This document shows, piece after piece, positions 1,976 to 63,058 of a stretch of 64,000 bases of DNA (positions within the stretch are counted from its first letter, which is position 1; each line of letters starts with the position of its first letter). The notes under the pieces were generated by a model. The model made no database searches. It was not told the DNA's origin and worked only from the letters and a program-made list of their open reading frames with translations. The DNA is from the human T2T-CHM13v2.0 reference genome, Homo sapiens. Both the position numbers and the translations under genes were made by a program. The stretch lies in NCBI RefSeq assembly GCF_009914755.1, contig NC_060936.1; one strand, 5' to 3'.

Positions 1976-2880
1976 GTGACTTTGCAACCATTTATCCATG
2001 CCATTGTCCTTATAGACCTATAAAGATCATCTTCCTGAGGCACAAAGCAAGGTGGAGATGGCTGAAGCACGAATGAGGGGCAGCAACAGGATGCTGACCA
2101 CCCCCAGTCCAGCACACCTGCCCACCTCCACTGTCTCCTGTCCTAGGCCACGGAACCTGGGCCATGGATGTCACACACTTTGCTTCCCCCTCCCTCTCCC
2201 TGCACTGAGAATGTACATCCTCATCTCGCCCATCTCCAGATATCCACTCTACAATGGTGTTTTCCTTTCATTTCCATTGTTTCCTTTCTTTTAGGTAATA
2301 GACAATCTCAAAAACAAATTGTATTTATTGCTGTTTCTCTAAAGAGGAACATGCCCTACAAAAGTCTCCTTCTTTATAGATTTCTCATTTATAACAGTGT
2401 GATACTTCTTTTTTATGGTACATAGAACTATTTTCTCTTGATGTTGGTTTCACATAAACAGAAGTAAATATGACTTTACTGGCTATAGAAATACAGCTCG
2501 TGGAGAGAAATGTATTTTGTATCTGAAATATTGCTCTTACCAAGTATTTTTATAAGCACCTTACACATAAAATAAAATGTCAAATAATTCAGAAACAAAT
2601 ATACTATGTTCCAGGGATTGCAAGGAAATTAACATGAAAAGGGACCTGGTAATTCAGGAGTCACTCACTGTTCAGGGAGACAGAAGGTCGGCAGCTGAAC
2701 GTGGAGCTACAAGGCTTCTTGAGGAATTACTACTTTAAAGAAAAACAATGATGTTTTATAGTATTGAAAAAAAAAAACTTTCTAATTTGCCACATATAAA
2801 TTTTAAGAGAAAAATGTTCTAGGAGAGACAAAAATGCTCTTGTTCATTGCCTCCCATAAAAATGAATTTGTACTTCTTAA

Positions 2881-3268
<388 letters not shown>

Positions 3269-3466: not shown

Positions 3467-4464
3467 ACCTACAAGAAGTATTGTTTGGCCCTCCCAATGC
3501 TTAATCAGGTGGTGTTTTAATGTTTCCTAATTAGTTGACAAGATCGAACACTTGAAATATTTCACACTGAAACCTTAATTTCTTCTCTCTCTTGGGTTAT
3601 CAAAAGATAAGGAATCTCCAGGCTTGCATTCCACTGCTGTATAAATTGGCTAGACACAAATCCTAGCCCCACCTAGAAAGGGCATGCATCCTCTCATTTC
3701 CTACCGTCCACACCATTCCCTATTGTCTCACCACAACTGTGTCCACTGCCACTCACCACTCAGCTGATGTTGTCCTTTTCATTTTGCACCTGCCTGATTC
3801 ACTCATGTACAGACCATCTCTGGCCCCTATAAAATTTGAATTTGCAGCATCACTCTAAAAGCAAAGGACCTAGAAATGTCTGCTATAAACAAAATATAGA
3901 CGTTTTAGCAAATAAAATACAAAGAGCAGTAATGGGAATTATCTAAAGTTAACATTCAAAATACTCATTATGGTCTCACAGAGGCCCAGGATAGCTGCCC
4001 AGGATCTGATTTCTTGGGTGAAAATGAGCACCATGCTTTCACTGATGGTTCAACTCTTTGGTTTGTATCCATTGTGGCAATGCCACAAAGACTCACCTGC
4101 AACCAATACAATTATAATTAAAAATCTGTTGCCATCTGATAATTTATAAGGATCATTCATCATGCAACAAAGTCCACAGCAGTTCTGTAGCCACTAATGC
4201 ACCATATTGATTGGCCATTACTGAACAAGCTAAGGAGATTAAATGACTCCTCCATTCGTTTTTCAAAATCTTATTTTAAATGTCTCAGCTATAATATTCT
4301 ACCAAATACCAGGGTGAAAAAAATCAATGAGATTAGAAATCTTCCTGCTACACTTAAGGGGCCATGTTATTCCTTGCTGCATAATGAATGGAATGAAAAT
4401 AATCACTAGCTGCCTCCACAGTGCACACCTTCCTCCAAATACATAGAGTGGACTCTGTTGCAGG

Positions 4465-4592
4465 AGGGAAAAAAAGGAGACAGAGAAGAAGGACGAAAGA
4501 AACGGAGAAGAAAAAGGGAGGAGAGAGAAAAGGGAGGAAGAAAAAAGAAAAGGAAAAAAGGAAGAAAGGAAGAGGGGGGAAGGAAAACAAAA
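4465..4592. repeat. Purine-rich (GA) low-complexity tract
   Basis: Nearly pure A/G run of about 130 bp; source of spurious K/R/E-rich and F/S/L-rich ORFs. Confidence 0.85.
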
Positions 4593-4853
4593 GAGGCTGG
4601 TTGTGTGAATGCAACAACATACAGCAAGTCTTTGATGTGTAGCCTGAGTAAAGACTGCAGAGATGCAGAAAAGGAGAAAACCCCAACACGCTGTAGCAAG
4701 ACATGAAAACATTCATGTGGCAAGACACACTGTAAAACTTCACTCTCTTTTGGGGGAGGAAATTGGAAATCTATAGATCTCTTCTTGGAGATAGAGCCAG
4801 CTGTCCTGAATGATTCAGTCAGACCCATTTTCTTTCAAACCAAGTCTCAGCGA

Positions 4854-5011
4854 TTTAGGGCCTTTTATAACAAAAGGCGGCCCAGGACAGAAGCAAATAC
4901 TCCTTGAGCACGGTAGCACCAGAGATGTTAATTACCAAAGGAGAAGGGTCAATGCCATCTTAATAGTAGAACCTGCTTTCATTCTGCGAGATAACTTTAT
5001 CTGTAGAAGAC
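4854..5011. repeat. Inverted repeat IR1, left arm
   Basis: Reverse complement aligns without gaps to 5935-6092 at 135/158 by hand count. Confidence 0.93.
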
Positions 5012-5616
5012 AAACAATACGTGTCTTCTACACGTACATTATACCCAGAAGTATAATGATCCAGAAGGAGTATAATGATCCAGAAGGAGTGAGGTGGTGC
5101 CATAACTGGTAGGGAGATTTACTTGGAACAGAAACTCTCACAGTCTTACCCCAAATCATGGGGCCAGAGACTGTTCCATTCCTCTTAAGAAGACGACAAA
5201 AGCTCCATCAGCATCTGCTCCAGCCCAAGGGCAGTGTTTTTGAGCTGGAAAAAGGAACAGGACTGGCCTCTGCCCTAGCCCAGCTCACTCTTAGGCGGTA
5301 TAGTGAGGAGGTGGGTGGGTTATGGATATCGGCTCCCGGGTCCCAGTCCTGCATCCTGCCCTGCTCTGCTTTCAATTCTTGTGCAGCCTTTCAGAACAAG
5401 AATCGCTTCAACACACATCCAACTTCACGCTCAGGGAAACAGGTGTGGGTGGAGTCCAGGTGGGGAAAATTCCCACCGCCTGATGAACTGATGAGCCTCT
5501 AGCCAAGGCAAGGCGAGGGGATGGAGGGAGCTGTGGCCAAAAAGACAGAGGAGACGTCAACTCTTGCCTGTGGATCACCAGGCAAGACAAGAACAGATGG
5601 ATGCACGCTGGCCTAC
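5001..5616 (-). other. Candidate GT-AG intron inside the IR1 spacer (minus strand)
   Basis: Donor GAG|GTAGGC at 5617/5616; acceptor tattgtttgtcttctacAG|at at 5001/5000; motif evidence only. Confidence 0.3.
5050..5090. repeat. Perfect 19-bp tandem duplication agtataatgatccagaagg x2
   Basis: Copies at 5050-5068 and 5069-5087. Confidence 0.9.
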
Positions 5617-5934
5617 CTCAGCTTCTCTTCTGTCTCTCTCTAACAAAACAGAAGAAGAATAACCCTCTTCTGGGGACACAAATGGGATTTCCTGGACTGC
5701 TGGGTCACACCTATAATGGTATCTAATCAAAATTCCTTTATGGCAAGGTATAGTGAGTTGCTGCTTTAGAAAGCTGCACTTGGTAAATGCATCCCAATGA
5801 ATGAGATGGATATTCTGTGCATTCACGTTCATTCCTCAGAGGCCTGGTCCCCATGGACTGCACCAACTGGGCTTCCTCATCCTCTGGCTTCTGGCTGAGT
5901 TCAGGCAGTGGGAGGCGCTGGCAGGAAATATGAG

Positions 5935-6092
5935 GTCTTCTACAGATGAAGTCATCTAGCAAAATGCAAGCAGGTTCTACTATTAAGATGGCATTGACCC
6001 TTCTCCATTGGTAATTAACATCTCTGGCACTACTGTGCTCGAGGAGTACCTACTTTTCTCCTGGGCCTTCTTTCATTCTAAAGAACCCTAAA
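5935..6092. repeat. Inverted repeat IR1, right arm
   Basis: gtcttctacagatgaagtcatctagc...aagcaggttctactattaagatggcattgacccttctcc...ccctaaa; complementary to 4854-5011. Confidence 0.93.
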
Positions 6093-6149
6093 AATAATGA
6101 GCCTTTGTCTTAATGATCATATCTCCTTGTTAGTTGCTGTTGTGGCCGA

Positions 6150-6409
6150 AACCATGTTCTTCAGTGTATGGCTGCAGCTCCCATGGACTGGCCCCTCTCC
6201 TAATGTGGCCTCTCTCTTCTGGCCTCAGTATCCCATTCTCTTTCCCACCTTTTTCAGTCAAATGGTAGTGACTATTGACCACTCCTGCTACCCTGGGGTC
6301 AGGTTCCTTAACACTGACCATATCGTTGTAATCAGCCCCATCATCAAAATCTCTTCAATCACCCCTTGGAAGATGTTGTCCATTTCTTTCTAGGATTTTG
6401 ACTCAAACA
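6150..6409 (+). mobile_element. ERVL LTR 3' part (LTR33-like)
   Basis: gtaatcagccccatcatcaaaatctcttcaatcacccc...ttgactcaaaca resembles the LTR33 3' end. Confidence 0.5.
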
Positions 6410-7419
6410 AAAGTGCAGAATAATTTTGTGACTTTCATGGTTCAAGACTTGAAGATAGTCAGGTCTCTATATCTTAAGAAACCTGTCTAAAATTCATTCA
6501 ACAAACATTCATGCTTTTAGTAGTTATTATGGCCCAGGTACTGTTGCTGGGCCCTATAATGCACCTGTTGCATTATCCATTTAAATGGATAATGCAAGGT
6601 ATTTGCCTGAAGGTGGTCATTGTCTATGCTGCAAATATTATTCTTCTCTCATGATACACATCCATGTCTATCTGACTAGCTGTGGAAATTTTAATCATTC
6701 AGGTGTAAGTATCTTTAATATTCTTGCACAAACTAGTTCTACTGATTGAAACCTAATCATTGATGACTGAAGAAAATATTCCAAGGCTTTCAAGGATGCC
6801 ACATACCCAACATTACAAAGCACAGATTAAAACATGAATAGAACAGTACATTATTTTCTGGTTTGTGCTATACATTCTTTTGGTACCTATTGAAAAAAAA
6901 ATCACTTCAAAACCAATCCAGTTCCTTAAAAATTAGTAGGGTAATTCTATGATAAGATGATATAGAGCTCACACTGATAAAGTAAGTTGATGGTGCAAGA
7001 ATGTATTTATACTTTCCGGCCACTTTCTGTTATCTCAAGGATTTCCTGTACACACTATTCAGGTGATCTCAGGCCTTTGAATTTAATTATGACATTAAAG
7101 ATGTAATTTTAGCATTTTAGGGCCCTGAATTATGTCCAACAGAAGGCTTTATGGAGAGCTTTGGGGAAATTATGATTTGTGTCATTTCAGCCAAAATGCC
7201 ATCTCCTGAGGAATTTCTACATTGACTTTGATGTCAAGTGTTCCCCATGTGGCATGGCACAAATTCTTGAAATTCTGACAGATGTTACTTCATAGCCCAT
7301 GAACAAATACATACAGGGCAAATGTAGCAGGATACCATTTTTGAAACATCAAGAGATCTCTTCTCTTAATGGCCATAAGCCTTTGGCACCTTCAGCCTCA
7401 ATTTTCCAGTGGGAAATAA

Positions 7420-26818: not shown

Positions 26819-27157
26819 CTTTTTTTTTTTTCTTTTTTTAAGTTCTGGGATACATGTGCAGAATGTGCAGGTTTGCTACATAGGTATACATGTGCCATGG
26901 TGGTGTGCTGCACCCATCAACCCCTCCTCTAGGTTTTAAGCCCTGCATGCATTAGGAATTTGTCCTAATGCTCTCCATCCCCTTTCTCTGCAACCCCCAA
27001 CAGGCCCCGTGTGTGATGTTCCCCTCCGTGTGTCCGTGTGTTCTCATTGTTCAACTCCCACTTATGGGTCAGAACATGTGGTGTTTGGTTTTCTGTTCCT
27101 GTGTTAGTTTGCTGAGAATGATGGTTTCCAGCTTCATCCATGTCCCTGCAAAGGACA
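26819..27157 (-). mobile_element. L1PA8-like 3' end (5'-truncated)
   Basis: aagttctgggatacatgtgcagaatgtgcagg...ggttttaagccctgcatgcattagg...catccatgtccctgcaaaggaca. Confidence 0.9.
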
Positions 27158-28029
27158 CAACTGTTTCTTTATAAGTTCTACACATACTGATTTAGTGTTA
27201 GTGGGGAAAAGAAAAAAAAAACAGGCGGGGTTTTCATTCAGCAGCAGACAATGGATGCGGGAGGAACTGGAGAGATCAGAAATGTGGTAAACGCTGGTTT
27301 GGTTGCCTCCCATAAAGGACCTCGTTCCAGTGTCATCCTCCTCATCCCCAGAGTCACTTGGATCTGTAAGCCTTGACTGTTGGTTCAATGTCTCGGTCAC
27401 CATCACCAGCCCCCATCTTAGACCCCAGGATGGACTCTAGGGCTGGACCACCATGATGAAAGACGGTGGGCACGGTTCCTGCACACTTCTGGAGGCGGGT
27501 GCAGCACCACGATGGATCTGACCTCCCACCTGGCTGCCCCCAAAGGGCCACTAAGCGCCTGGAACTGCAGAGAAGTCACTGCCCACAGAGCTATGAACTA
27601 GTGATACTCGGGAGTCAGGAAGGAGTTGGCAGAACGAGCCATTCCCATCCTCCCAGGCCTCTGAGGGCCTCTCAAGACACAAGCACGTGAACAAGGCACT
27701 GCTGTGTTTTCTGGCGAAGGTCAGGCAACTTCGCAGACAACGCTTCCCACTCACTTCCCTGTTCCCTGTCACTCTTCTGCTCTCTCTCGGTTCTCCGCGG
27801 TTGGCCACAGCTCCCCTCCCTTCCACAATAAAGTATAACATGTAAGTATTCCCACGCGGTCTGCTTTCACAGGGGATTTGGGCTACGATAACTCCCAACA
27901 AGCCCTCCAATAAGCCTCTATCCCCTTTTAACTTCCAACTTCTGTTTGAAGCTACAACAGGTTCCTAGGAAGCTGCCTCCACAAATCCCTACCCCAGAAA
28001 TGAGCCTGCAAGATCTCAGCCAAGTCACC

Positions 28030-34326: not shown

Positions 34327-34611
34327 GTGAGTAATACTGCTATAAAATAAAGGTGCACAAGTTTCTCTTTGAGATTCTGTTTTCAATTCTTTTGTATATA
34401 TAGCTAGAAGTAGAATTGCTAGATCATATATTGATTCTACTTTTAATTTTTTAAGGAAATGCCATATTGTTTCCATAGCAGCTGTAAATTTTACATTCCC
34501 ATCAACATTATGCAAGGTTTCTGCTGTCATCACATGTTCTCTTTTCTTGACAGTGGCCATCGTAATGGGTGTAAGGTGACAGTTATCTCATTGTGGTGAG
34601 GAGAATGTGGT

Positions 34612-34671
34612 TTTTAATTTTTTAAGGACGGTTCCTTAAATTTTTAAGGAACCGTCCTTAAAAAATTAAAA
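34612..34671. repeat. Perfect palindrome, 29-bp arms with a 2-nt spacer
   Basis: ttttaattttttaaggacggttccttaaa-tt-tttaaggaaccgtccttaaaaaattaaaa. Confidence 0.97.
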
Positions 34672-34740
34672 GTAGAATTAATATATGATTTAGGAGTTCT
34701 ACTTCTAGGTATATGTACAAAAGAATTGAAAACAGAATCA

Positions 34741-41785: not shown

Positions 41786-43695
41786 GAGAAGATAAATAAA
41801 AACAGAAAAATGCAGGAGAAAATCAAAGAGAAAAGGATAAAACTGCCATAAATGGCATCCAGTTGCGATCTGTTAAAAGGGTTCTGACTTTATTCCTGCC
41901 TCCCAGGCCCCTCCTCCTACACTCTGTCCCCACAGATCAGCACCTACAGGCATTAAATTTGTTGCACAAAAATATGCACCTGCCATAATTCCAGAGTCCC
42001 AAATATGGTGAAAATATAATTATCTATTCATTGATCTATTTAACTGTAAAGGACTCTATCAATCGTCTATCAATAAGGAATTTTATATACCAATCTATCT
42101 ATCCATTTGATAATCAGTACCCCAGGCTATCCTGCTTCAATAGTAAGAAAAAAACATTCTCCTCTGTCTCGGTGAAAAAACAAGATTCAGCAACTCATGA
42201 GCCTTCAAATTGAGCTGTAATGAATATTGTGTCGTGCTGGTGATTTCAACCGAATAATTCCAGGAAGGCTGGAAAAGGGGTCGGTCTATCTTCATCCCTT
42301 TTGTCGCCTAAAAGCAAAATCATGAGAAAGAAGTCCAGAATAAAGATGGTAATCCTGGGCTGTAAATGCTGGAACCTCATCCATGATGCCAATTGCTCCA
42401 TAACCACACGGACGTGAACCCCAAAAAGCATGAGATACAAGGTGAGAGTAAACACTGCCCCTGTATGTACAGGTAATCCCTCTGCTAGCTGTGGGTTCTA
42501 AGGCCGACTGCTGAAAAGATTTGACGGAAGTTGCCACTTGGGAAGCTTTTTTTGGAAGTTAAAACAGAAAAACTCAGCGCCTTCCAATGATGCTTTATTT
42601 TATTTGTCAAATATTCATTGTCACCCACCCTTACCCCAATTTCCCAAGGCAACTCTTTTCTGGTTCTTTCTCAGGGACCAGTGGTTGACTACTAGTAAAA
42701 AGGAAAAAGCCGAATATTCACCCCTCATGCTTCATACGAAATCACATCTCTACTTTGCTGCTTGTATTTTGGAAAAATTGCTTAATCCATTTTTTTCAAG
42801 CAGTAATACACTTGGTGATAAACATATTTAAATTGAATACTTCAGCAACGAAAGACTGTGTTCCTTAACCATTTATGCAAGTTCTAGCTTCTTAACTAGG
42901 AAAGAAATAGTGGCAACGACATGTCAGGTCTGTAGCTACATTTTTAAATAATGGGCTTCAAAAAAAAAAAAAAAAAAAGAAAAGGAAAAATCCCTTCCTC
43001 TTAAGGAGGAAAAAAAAGACATCTTTTATCACAAAATCTGTTCCTTCTTTAGCTGTTTTTAATCGATATCTACACCTTTGGGTAGGAAAATAAATCTGTA
43101 TCTTTGAATAGCGTCATTTCCAACAACAGAGCAAGGCTCTGAGATGTGTTCTTTTTTATTAACAAAGGTGTTGTTAAATATCTGCACCATATATGTTTGA
43201 TTTAGTCACTTTAGAAAACCCTAGAGAATGGCTGAGGGTTGTTAGCAGCTGGGTCTATAAATTGTAAACCTTCCCCAGGGCAAAGTGCCACTTGTGATGT
43301 TTGTTACTGTTATTTCATACGACATTTATTTAACCAGGAATAGGAAGAGTGGTGATTCAGCGGTGGTCTGATACCACAAAGGTGAAAAGCGAGTCAGGCA
43401 GGAGGTGCCGAGAATTAGGGCACACACCCTGTCTCAGAGGAAAGTTGGGGCTCAGCCCTACTCGTTGTCAAGAAGCCAGACACCCATTTTTTTCTATGTG
43501 ATATCACCTAGAATTTTTAAATTAGCGATTAATCCAAACTTTAAAACAGACTCTGCGTGGGAAGAACAGAATCCACTTGCGAGCTAGATTCAGGCTGCAA
43601 GCTCCTACCTTCCCAACCTCTGGTTAACAGCTTCCTTGTTGTACCAGAACGGCCACCCAGCCTACTTCATCCTGGCTCCTAGCGTCCAAGCAGCA

Positions 43696-43791
43696 ACTTC
43701 AGCAAGCTACTGCAACTACTGCAGAAATAATAACAGACACATACAAGAAGAACCCAGCTCTGGAAATATGATCAGGGGTTTACTGTAAACA
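43696..43791. repeat. Third copy of the IR2 unit (complementary to 49113-49205)
   Basis: acttcagcaagctactgcaactactgcagaaataataacagacacatacaagaagaacccagctctggaaatatgatcaggggtttac; about 84% to the reverse complement of 49113-49205. Confidence 0.88.
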
Positions 43792-48778: not shown

Positions 48779-48999
48779 CAGGTGTATTCCTGATAAATCC
48801 ATGTAAGTCACACAGGTGTATTCCTGATAAAGCCAGGTAAGTCACACAGGTGTATTTCTGATAAATCCAGGTAAGTCTGATAAATCCATGTAAGTCACAC
48901 AGGTGTATTCCTGATAAATCCAGGTGAGTCACACAGGTGTATTTCTGATAAATCCAGGTAAGTCACACAGGTGTATTCCTGATAAAGCCAGGTAAGTCA
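48779..48999 (+). repeat. 34-bp minisatellite, about 6.5 copies (caggtgtattyctgataaakccakgtragtcaca)
   Basis: Units begin at 48779, 48813, 48847, 48900, 48934 and 48968, plus a partial unit at about 48877. Confidence 0.95.
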
Positions 49000-49161
49000 G
49001 TCCCACGGCCTCCCCTCGAGGCGTAGGAGGCAGAGAAGTGGCACCTTAACACTTTTTTTCCTTCTCAATATTCTGAGGAGGAGACAGGCTCTCTGTGATA
49101 TGGCTCAATTCATGTTCATGATAAACCCCTAATCATATTTTCAGAGCTGGATTCTTCTTGT

Positions 49162-49309
49162 TTGTGTCTGTTATTTCTGTAGTAGTCGCAGTAGGTTGGT
49201 GAAGTCTTTGCTAGTAAACGTCGCCCTAAACTTAAAAATCATAACATCATTCTGCTTCTCTGAAACAATAGCTGCAATTTCTCAGGCTCTTGAAGCACTA
49301 GGATTTCAA
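49162..49309. repeat. Inverted repeat IR2, left arm
   Basis: Reverse complement aligns to 50174-50321 at about 131/149 with two 1-bp gaps. Confidence 0.93.
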
Positions 49310-50173: not shown

Positions 50174-50321
50174 TTGAAATCCTAGATGATTCAAGAGCCC
50201 TGGAAATTGGAGCTATTATTTCAGAGAAGCAGAATGATGTTATGATTTTCAAGTTTAGGGTGACATTAACTAGCAAAGGCTTCACCCACCTACTGCAACA
50301 ACTGAAAAATAACAGACACAA
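50174..50321. repeat. Inverted repeat IR2, right arm
   Basis: ttgaaatcctag...tttcagagaagcagaatgatgttatgattttcaagtttaggg...aataacagacacaa. Confidence 0.93.
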
Positions 50322-62690: not shown

Positions 62691-63058
62691 TCCATGGAAT
62701 ACTAGGCAGCCACAAAAAAAAGAAAGAGTTCATGTCCTTTGCAGGGACATGGATGAAGTTGGAAACCATCATTCTCAGCAAACTAACACAGGAACAGAAA
62801 ACCAAACATCGTGCATTCTCACTCATAAGGGGGAGTTCAACAATGAGAACACATGGACACAGGGAGGGGAACATCACACACCAGGGCCTGTTGGAGGGTG
62901 GGGAGTAAGGGGAGGGGTAGCATTAGGAGAAATACCTGATGTAGATGACGAGTTGATGGGTGCAGCAAACCACCATGGCACGTGTATACCTATGTAACCA
63001 ACCTGCACGTTCCGCACATGTACCCCAGAACTTAAAGTCTAAGATAATAAATAAATAA
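62691..63058 (+). mobile_element. L1PA7-like 3' end
   Basis: ccatggaatact...catgtcctttgcagggacatggatgaag...ggagaaatacctgatgtagatgac...agaacttaaa plus A-rich tail. Confidence 0.9.

What the first reader, a model, noticed from the sequence alone, without database searches (positions are those of the whole stretch)
4854..6092. IR1: ungapped 158-bp inverted repeat with a near-perfect 60-bp core
Seen: the reverse complement of 4854-5011 matches 5935-6092 at 135/158 with no gaps. The core aagcaggttctactattaagatggcattgacccttctcc(t/a)ttggtaattaacatctctgg is 59/60, while the outer flank decays to about 60-70%. Of 17 transitions, 11 give G:U pairs on the minus strand and 6 on the plus strand, a weak bias. 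Inference: an uneven identity profile like this suggests selection on pairing or arm-to-arm gene conversion rather than uniform decay. It may also be an inversion-prone site.
Basis: partly seen in the sequence, partly recalled or inferred. Interest (0 to 1): 0.72.

Follow-up and report, generated by a model that had tools for sequence, protein, structure and literature searches.

The report
Inverted DNA-repair patch in TMEM132D intron
A stretch of about 160-180 bases in an intron of the human gene TMEM132D occurs twice, back to front and 923 bases apart, with the second copy interrupting an old dispersed repeat; it is likely an ordinary scar of DNA-break repair whose middle was probably evened out later by copying between the two copies.

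Summary
The arms were found nowhere else in the genome. The right arm interrupts an old dispersed repeat: 30 of 33 copies match the window up to 5912-5936, none matches an arm, and matches resume after it. This is the anatomy of a repair-mediated duplication (Pace et al. 2009, PMC2671141: single donor under 5 kb away, mean 162 bp). This locus is not in their table, but a listed inverted one lies about 140 kb away, and similar pairs recur in the region. The core exceeds uniform decay (P=0.002), less so after trimming or with blockwise rate variation (P up to 0.04 and 0.4), and other local duplications are patchy too. Later arm-to-arm conversion is the best reading; chance is a close rival. The G:U bias is not significant (p=0.33). 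The arms are shorter and more diverged than those of the NAHR inversions studied in PMC6748972. Ordinary: a new member of a known kind.

The parts
4831..5011 (+). Left arm, the inferred donor. Ungapped part 4854-5011; no other copy found in the genome except the right arm
   Evidence: donor role inferred from the right arm lying inside a repeat
4919..4978 (+). Core of the left arm, 59/60 identical to the right core, no CpG
5002..5032 (.). Perfect 11-bp hairpin (5002-5012 / 5022-5032) at the inner end of the left arm; 5023-5032 is a third copy of the 10 bases that open the right arm
   Evidence: 3 copies in the window, 0.2 expected
5012..5934 (.). 923-nt spacer; holds a perfect 19-bp tandem duplication (5050-5090) and the first part of the interrupted repeat
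5806..5934 (+). First part of an old dispersed repeat (LTR33-like ERVL solo LTR; the name is recalled, no call gave it), ending at the right arm
   Evidence: 31 of 33 genomic copies match here, 30 of them ending at 5912-5936
5935..6116 (-). Right arm, the inferred acceptor: inverted copy of 4831-5011 inside the repeat. Outer end uncertain between 6092 and 6116
5968..6027 (-). Core of the right arm (59/60)
6110..6411 (+). Second part of the same dispersed repeat, same orientation as the first part; start poorly resolved (6104-6125)
   Evidence: 12 of 33 copies have a BLAST match here; 14 of 33 resume above shuffle level, net offset +86 to +248, median about 155

Best explanation
The right arm is an inverted copy of a nearby single-copy stretch that interrupts an old dispersed repeat, likely pasted in when a germline double-strand break was repaired by copying from DNA about 1 kb away, and its near-perfect core was probably evened out later by one arm being copied onto the other, likely with no function. 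Steps. (1) Shown: two inverted arms, single-copy in the genome at the sensitivity of the searches; the right one splits a repeat whose two halves keep one orientation. (2) Inferred: a break inside the repeat; a 3' end invaded the sequence at 5011, copied about 160-180 nt leftwards and rejoined, with roughly 20-35 nt of the repeat lost (synthesis-dependent strand annealing or a template switch). (3) Inferred from divergence at 2.2e-9 per site per year: this happened about 40-60 million years ago (limits 22-95). (4) Inferred: a conversion tract of at least 60 bp reset the core within about the last 20 million years (point value 4). I put the origin (steps 1-2) at about 0.9 and step 4 at about 0.55.
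For: Arms unique: only the two arms returned by DNA searches and by 32-mer and 24-mer core patterns with up to 3 mismatches. Insertion into a repeat: of 33 copies, 30 stop at 5912-5936, none covers 5940-6139 or the left arm, 12 match again at 6154-6411; median net offset about 155 nt in the 14 of 33 that resume above shuffle level. Size, spacing and single donor fit the class in PMC2671141 (mean 162 bp, distance peak about 1.2 kb). A catalogued member in the same gene is inverted too (446 bp, 95.7%, spacer 451). Core: P=0.0024 under uniform decay, unchanged without CpG columns; second-longest run among 150 repeat pairs in the window. Ages. Arm homogenisation by template switching is described for short yeast repeats (PMC13100816, passages).
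Against: No outgroup genome was available, so neither the empty site nor shared derived bases in the core were seen. Core significance falls to P=0.013 and 0.040 when the alignment is cut at column 133 or 113, and to 0.007-0.40 with gamma rates in blocks of 10-30 nt. The permutation null is too strict: 7 of 150 repeat pairs in the window reach P<0.01. Only 14 of 33 copies resume clearly after the arm and the offsets scatter widely. Junction microhomology is at most 1 nt. The yeast precedent has spacers of 70 bp or less, not 923. The genome search is word-seeded and can miss old repeat families (tool note).
Confidence: 0.5

Rival explanations
1. Same origin (repair-mediated duplication), but the core is only the tail of uneven neutral decay: clustered mutations and local rate differences, with no later exchange between arms.
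For: Blockwise gamma rates give P=0.007-0.40, trimming gives 0.013-0.04. Repeat pairs in the window are overdispersed (22 of 150 at P<0.05), and one pair 35 kb apart has a longer run (76). Nine other local duplications, direct and inverted, are jointly patchy (Fisher p=0.007). 8 of the 23 mismatches lie at CpG-type columns, all outside the core. The finding was picked for this pattern.
Against: P stays 0.0024 without CpG columns. The patchiness of the other pairs may itself come from conversion or from BLAST end extension.
Confidence: 0.3
2. Relic of inversion: the arms arose at staggered breaks of a small inversion, or later recombined with each other, and the spacer was flipped an even number of times; the core is the exchange tract.
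For: Same end product as the best explanation; PMC2671141 suggests such duplications may promote inversion of the spacer. The 11-bp hairpin at the left arm's inner end shows some strand switching at that very base.
Against: The two halves of the split repeat have one orientation, so two flips are needed. NAHR inversions studied in humans use repeats over 90% identical and 654 bp to 24 kb long. A full-text search for TMEM132D + inversion + inverted repeat gave 3 papers, none about this by title or abstract start.
Confidence: 0.08
3. The duplication was kept by selection because the arms pair in the TMEM132D pre-mRNA (minus strand) as a long stem that affects splicing, editing or looping.
For: The minus strand is predicted to fold the two arms into one long stem. 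G:U leans to the transcribed strand: 11:6 here, 10:1 in the catalogued pair 140 kb away.
Against: Any inverted repeat folds so. 11:6 has p=0.33; the five other local inverted pairs give 30:19, p=0.15; 14 inverted pairs within 5 kb in the window give 244:247. Transcription-linked mutation asymmetry predicts the same direction (recalled knowledge). No Rfam match. The annotation supplied lists no exon in the window and no functional element at this place. One arm sits in a decayed repeat.
Confidence: 0.07
4. Two independent insertions of a rare dispersed repeat, or the terminal inverted repeats of one 1.3-kb DNA transposon.
For: Word-seeded searches can miss old families; 12% of the window is masked and the list of masked stretches is incomplete.
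Against: No third copy in five searches. A 1.3-kb element cannot hold the first half of a repeat inside and the second half just outside.
Confidence: 0.03

Closest known systems
Repair-mediated duplications (RDs), Pace, Sen, Batzer and Feschotte 2009, PMC2671141
   Same: Insertion of 50 bp or more that splits a transposable element; one donor, under 5 kb away (923 nt here; peak about 1.2 kb); size 158-182 nt (mean 162); no polyA tail; intronic. A listed member in TMEM132D proved to be inverted.
   Different: Not in their Table S1 (37 proximal chr12 rows read). More diverged (15-18%) than most listed chr12 rows (0-17%). Has a near-perfect core; the main text has 0 hits for 'conversion' and 'invert'.
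Doublets (short paired duplications), Thomas et al. 2004, PMC478600 (not held; known here only from the passage and reference in PMC2671141)
   Same: Short, locally paired duplication thought to come from imperfect break repair.
   Different: PMC2671141 describes the earlier surveys as covering identical or near-identical pairs under 100 bp; this pair is longer and 82-85% identical.
Human polymorphic inversions by NAHR between inverted repeats (PMC6748972, PMC3961182; passages only)
   Same: Inverted repeats flank a spacer; exchange falls in the most identical stretch.
   Different: Those repeats are over 90% identical and 654 bp to 24.2 kb; here 158-182 nt at 82-85%, longest perfect run 39 nt. 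No sign that the spacer is flipped.
Arm homogenisation of inverted repeats by template switching (yeast, PMC13100816; passages only)
   Same: One arm overwrites the other, leaving a perfect tract. Fits the 11-bp hairpin at 5002-5032 well.
   Different: Described for arms of 10-48 bp and spacers up to 70 bp; the main pair here has a 923-nt spacer.

Membership tests
Repair-mediated duplication (Pace 2009) | Insertion of 50 bp or more that interrupts a transposable element, same family and orientation on both sides | tested here: met
   Pairwise comparison with 33 genomic copies; no RepeatMasker available, family name LTR33 recalled
Repair-mediated duplication (Pace 2009) | The two element halves join within 30 bp in consensus coordinates | tested here: inconclusive
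   Loss of roughly 20-35 nt estimated from three copies (L033, L014, L017; the last not above shuffle level); offsets scatter +86 to +248
Repair-mediated duplication (Pace 2009) | Insert found at only one other place in the genome | tested here: met
   only the two arms; the DNA search is word-seeded
Repair-mediated duplication (Pace 2009) | Donor more than 50 bp and less than 5 kb away; insert up to about 620 bp | tested here: met
   Spacer 923 nt, arms 158-182 nt
Repair-mediated duplication (Pace 2009) | No polyA/T tail (not a retroposed copy) | tested here: met
   Junctions read; the only A run (5 nt, about 6090) lies inside the part that aligns with the donor
Repair-mediated duplication (Pace 2009) | Breakpoint marks: microhomology of 2-9 nt, deletion or filler | tested here: inconclusive
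   Deletion likely; microhomology at most 1 nt at the sharp junction; the other junction is decayed
Repair-mediated duplication (Pace 2009) | Empty site in an outgroup species | not testable with these tools
   No relatives held for this genome
NAHR inversion-mediating inverted repeats (PMC6748972) | Over 90% identity and 654 bp or longer | tested here: not met
   158-182 nt, 82-85%
NAHR inversion-mediating inverted repeats (PMC6748972) | Both spacer orientations seen among haplotypes or apes | not testable with these tools
   One human assembly only
Pair of dispersed repeat copies | Further copies elsewhere in the genome | tested here: not met
   no repeat library to scan
DNA transposon with long terminal inverted repeats | Arms bound one element, with unrelated sequence outside | tested here: not met
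   One older repeat runs from inside the spacer to outside the right arm
Conserved structured RNA | Match to an Rfam family | tested here: not met
   One chance-level match outside the arms, E=3.2
Conserved structured RNA | Cross-species conservation with compensatory changes | not testable with these tools
   No other vertebrate genome held

The most novel reading that the evidence does not exclude
A DNA-repair patch created a long-range stem in the TMEM132D pre-mRNA that selection now keeps: the 60-bp core is conserved across primates, and the lean to G:U on the transcribed strand, seen in several such inverted patches of this gene (43:26 over six pairs, p=0.053), marks repair-made duplications as a source of selected double-stranded RNA.
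Probability: 0.07. Interest if true: 0.6.

Novelty: new member of a known kind. Interest (0 to 1): 0.13.

Why it matters
As it most likely stands it matters little: one more of at least 824 catalogued repair-mediated duplications. It has two modest uses. It is a clean case, with donor and acceptor known, for asking whether 150-bp inverted copies 1 kb apart still exchange sequence after tens of millions of years; PMC2671141 does not treat orientation or conversion as a topic. And the count of such pairs in this gene (7 in 124 kb examined) hints that the catalogue, a stated minimum, is far short. If the core were under selection for RNA pairing it would show break repair as a source of functional RNA structure, but nothing here supports that beyond a non-significant lean.

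Tried and rejected
Dispersed-repeat origin: five genome searches found no third copy. Rfam: nothing on the arms. Coding remnant: 34 stop-to-stop frames of 40 aa or more in 4500-6500 were listed and none stood out by eye; no protein or Pfam search was run. A cheap-gap aligner gave fragmented, uninformative alignments and was replaced by BLAST and anchored alignments. G:U bias: a hand-picked subset of three pairs gave 29:11 (p=0.006), but all five pairs known at that point gave 35:20 (p=0.058), and the five pairs other than IR1 give 30:19 (p=0.15); I do not count it as evidence. The RNA fold has no shuffle control at that length and is expected for any inverted repeat. A survey of several hundred kb for background density was not obtained, so the density figure rests on 124 kb of one gene. 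Literature: searches; none listed a paper on this locus by title or abstract start; Thomas et al. 2004 is not held.

Full report
1. Observation. The repeat finder gives arms 4854-5011 and 5935-6092, 158 nt, 85% complementary, 923 nt apart. By segment, from the inner end: 28/33, 59/60, 48/65; past one 1-nt gap the match goes on at 17/26 to 4831/6116. The inner end is sharp: identity on the same antidiagonal falls to background at once inside 5011/5935.

2. Is the core more than chance? Shuffling the 23 mismatches over 158 columns gives a run of 60 with at most one mismatch in 0.24% of trials. Removing the 12 CpG-type columns, which hold 8 mismatches, leaves P=0.0024; merging adjacent mismatches as well gives 0.013. 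Against this: cutting the alignment at column 133 or 113 gives 0.013 and 0.040, and gamma-distributed rates in blocks of 10-30 nt give 0.007 to 0.40. As an empirical check, among all 150 repeat pairs of 140 columns or more in the window, this run ranks second (longest 76, a pair 35 kb apart), and the uniform null is too strict there: 7 of 150 reach P<0.01, 22 of 150 P<0.05. The core is in the tail, not off the scale. The G:U split has p=0.33.

3. The arms are single-copy. A genome search with the left arm returned only the two arms. Searches with 5935-6450 and 4590-5934 returned outside matches only for 5840-5933 and 6355-6409. A 32-mer and a 24-mer of the core, up to 3 mismatches, each occur once per strand, at the two arms. 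The DNA search is word-seeded, so a very old family cannot be fully excluded; two independent copies of such a family would not be expected at 85% identity (inference).

4. The right arm is an insertion. I collected 33 other copies of the repeat that matched next to the right arm: 5 from window queries and 28 from a query with one of those copies that spans the junction (6 further matches were given no locus). Against window 4591-6700, 31 of 33 match within 5806-5936; 30 of them end at 5912-5936, one at 5876, none beyond 5936. No copy covers 5940-6139 or the left arm; 12 of 33 match again within 6154-6411. Aligned from the junction, 14 of 33 resume above shuffle level, the earliest at 6104 and 6114, with net extra length in the window of +86 to +248 nt, median about 155. 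So about 160-180 nt were put into the repeat and probably 20-35 nt of it were lost. Both halves keep one orientation. I recognise the repeat as an LTR33-like ERVL solo LTR from memory; no call names it. This fixes the polarity (left donor, right acceptor; inferred), rules out one 1.3-kb element with terminal repeats, and shows the spacer is not now inverted against the right flank.

5. A small extra. An 11-bp perfect hairpin, 5002-5012 / 5022-5032, sits at the inner end of the donor, so the ten bases that open the right arm occur three times in the window (0.2 expected). Such hairpins occur at about ten sites in the 64 kb, so one at this base is unlikely by chance. It may be a snap-back from the same repair event, or the structure that set the end point. 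I cannot tell which.

6. Known class. Pace et al. 2009 (PMC2671141; read: parts 1-5 of 8 of the text, the methods section on identification, passages, and all 102 chr12 places of Table S1) found 824 human repair-mediated duplications as insertions in transposable elements with a single donor within 5 kb, mean 162 bp, distance peak about 1.2 kb, and breakpoints with microhomology, deletion or filler, ascribed to synthesis-dependent strand annealing. Table S1 has 37 proximal chr12 rows, two in TMEM132D. I found both by their geometry: a 446-bp pair, 95.7%, spacer 451, which is inverted, and an 84-bp direct pair, spacer 2040. The first gives an hg18-to-T2T offset of about 981.5 kb, placing IR1 near hg18 128.79 Mb, where the table has no row. 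Their filter (element halves within 30 bp) and score cut-off may explain the absence (inference). The text has no hit for 'invert' or 'conversion'. The other three supplementary files were not read.

7. How ordinary. The window has two more locally duplicated pairs: 49162-49309 / 50174-50321 (88%, inverted, evenly decayed, P=0.22) and 43689-43791 as an inverted copy of 49113-49212. Six further 10-kb tiles of the gene gave 20 local pairs, 4 of them with no other match in the pooled sequence. I tested 2 of the 4 against the genome and both are single pairs. One is a near twin of IR1: 189 bp, inverted, 89%, spacer 649, with its own 60-column run (P=0.05). Nine other local pairs are jointly patchy (p=0.007), partly perhaps from BLAST end extension.

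8. Age and mechanism. At 2.2e-9 substitutions per site per year (the rate used in PMC2671141) the non-core columns give 61 Myr (37-95), or 42 Myr (22-72) without CpG columns; the core gives 4 Myr (0.1-22). Best reading: a break in the repeat was patched by copying the nearby stretch on the opposite strand, and one later non-crossover exchange between arms reset the core. Shown: anatomy, uniqueness, interrupted repeat. Inferred: break, pathway, dates, conversion. Odds: conversion 0.5, uneven neutral decay 0.3, inversion relic 0.08, selected RNA stem 0.07, dispersed copies 0.03.

9. Against function. No Rfam match; no exon in the window and no listed functional element here (annotation supplied with the finding). 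The minus strand is predicted to pair the arms, as any inverted repeat would. G:U on the transcribed strand leads 13:7 over the extended arms, 10:1 in the catalogued pair, 6:3, 6:5, 0:4 and 8:6 in four others: 30:19 without IR1 (p=0.15), 43:26 with it (p=0.053). The 14 inverted pairs within 5 kb in the window give 244:247. Human NAHR inversions use repeats over 90% identical and at least 654 bp (PMC6748972, passages; PMC3961182, passages).

10. Verdict. Real, correctly described, and a new member of a known kind. The cross-species test that would separate conversion, chance and selection could not be run. Interest 0.13.

Noticed in passing
window 49162-49309 / 50174-50321: Second single-copy inverted duplication of the same build (149 columns, 88%, spacer 864), evenly decayed; part of its left arm and flank (49113-49212) has a further inverted copy at 43689-43791.
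   Followed up: partly
window 34373-34457 / 34655-34739 and about 34612-34671: 85-bp inverted pair at 93%, 197 nt apart, in repeat-derived (L1-like, recalled) sequence, with a near-perfect palindrome beside the right arm; looks like a fold-back scar.
   Followed up: partly
window 6568-6597: Perfect 30-bp palindrome about 450 nt right of the right arm.
   Followed up: no
window 5002-5032: 11-bp perfect hairpin exactly at the inner end of the donor arm; origin unexplained.
   Followed up: partly
L055 3149-3337 / 3987-4174 (chr12 about 129.749 Mb): Near twin of IR1 about 21 kb away: single-copy inverted pair, 189 bp, 89%, spacer 649, 60-column run with one mismatch.
   Followed up: partly
L052 2895-3263 / 5798-6166; L056 6527-6712 / 7221-7393; L056 257-391 / 1209-1343: Three direct local duplications (369 bp 97%; 186 bp 82%, single pair in the genome; 135 bp 81%, may be two repeat copies). 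With the window's three and L055 that is 7 pairs in 124 kb of TMEM132D, against a published minimum of 0.62 per Mb of repeat DNA under stricter rules; 33 loci of 3 kb elsewhere gave 1. Whether this gene is enriched is open.
   Followed up: partly
L049 1664-2109 / 2561-3002: The MER2 row of Table S1 in PMC2671141 is an inverted pair; its transitions give G:U on the transcribed strand 10:1 (p=0.012, one of several pairs looked at).
   Followed up: partly
window 48779-48999: Young nested minisatellite (34/53/87/121-nt periods, 93-97% matches) just left of the second inverted pair.
   Followed up: no
window 5511-5549: Weak reverse-orientation match to 2 of the 33 repeat copies (E=0.008 each); perhaps a second decayed element in the spacer.
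   Followed up: no
window 26820-27170 / 62719-63055: Inverted pair 35.5 kb apart, 82% over 355 columns, with a 76-column run of at most one mismatch, the longest in the window.
   Followed up: no
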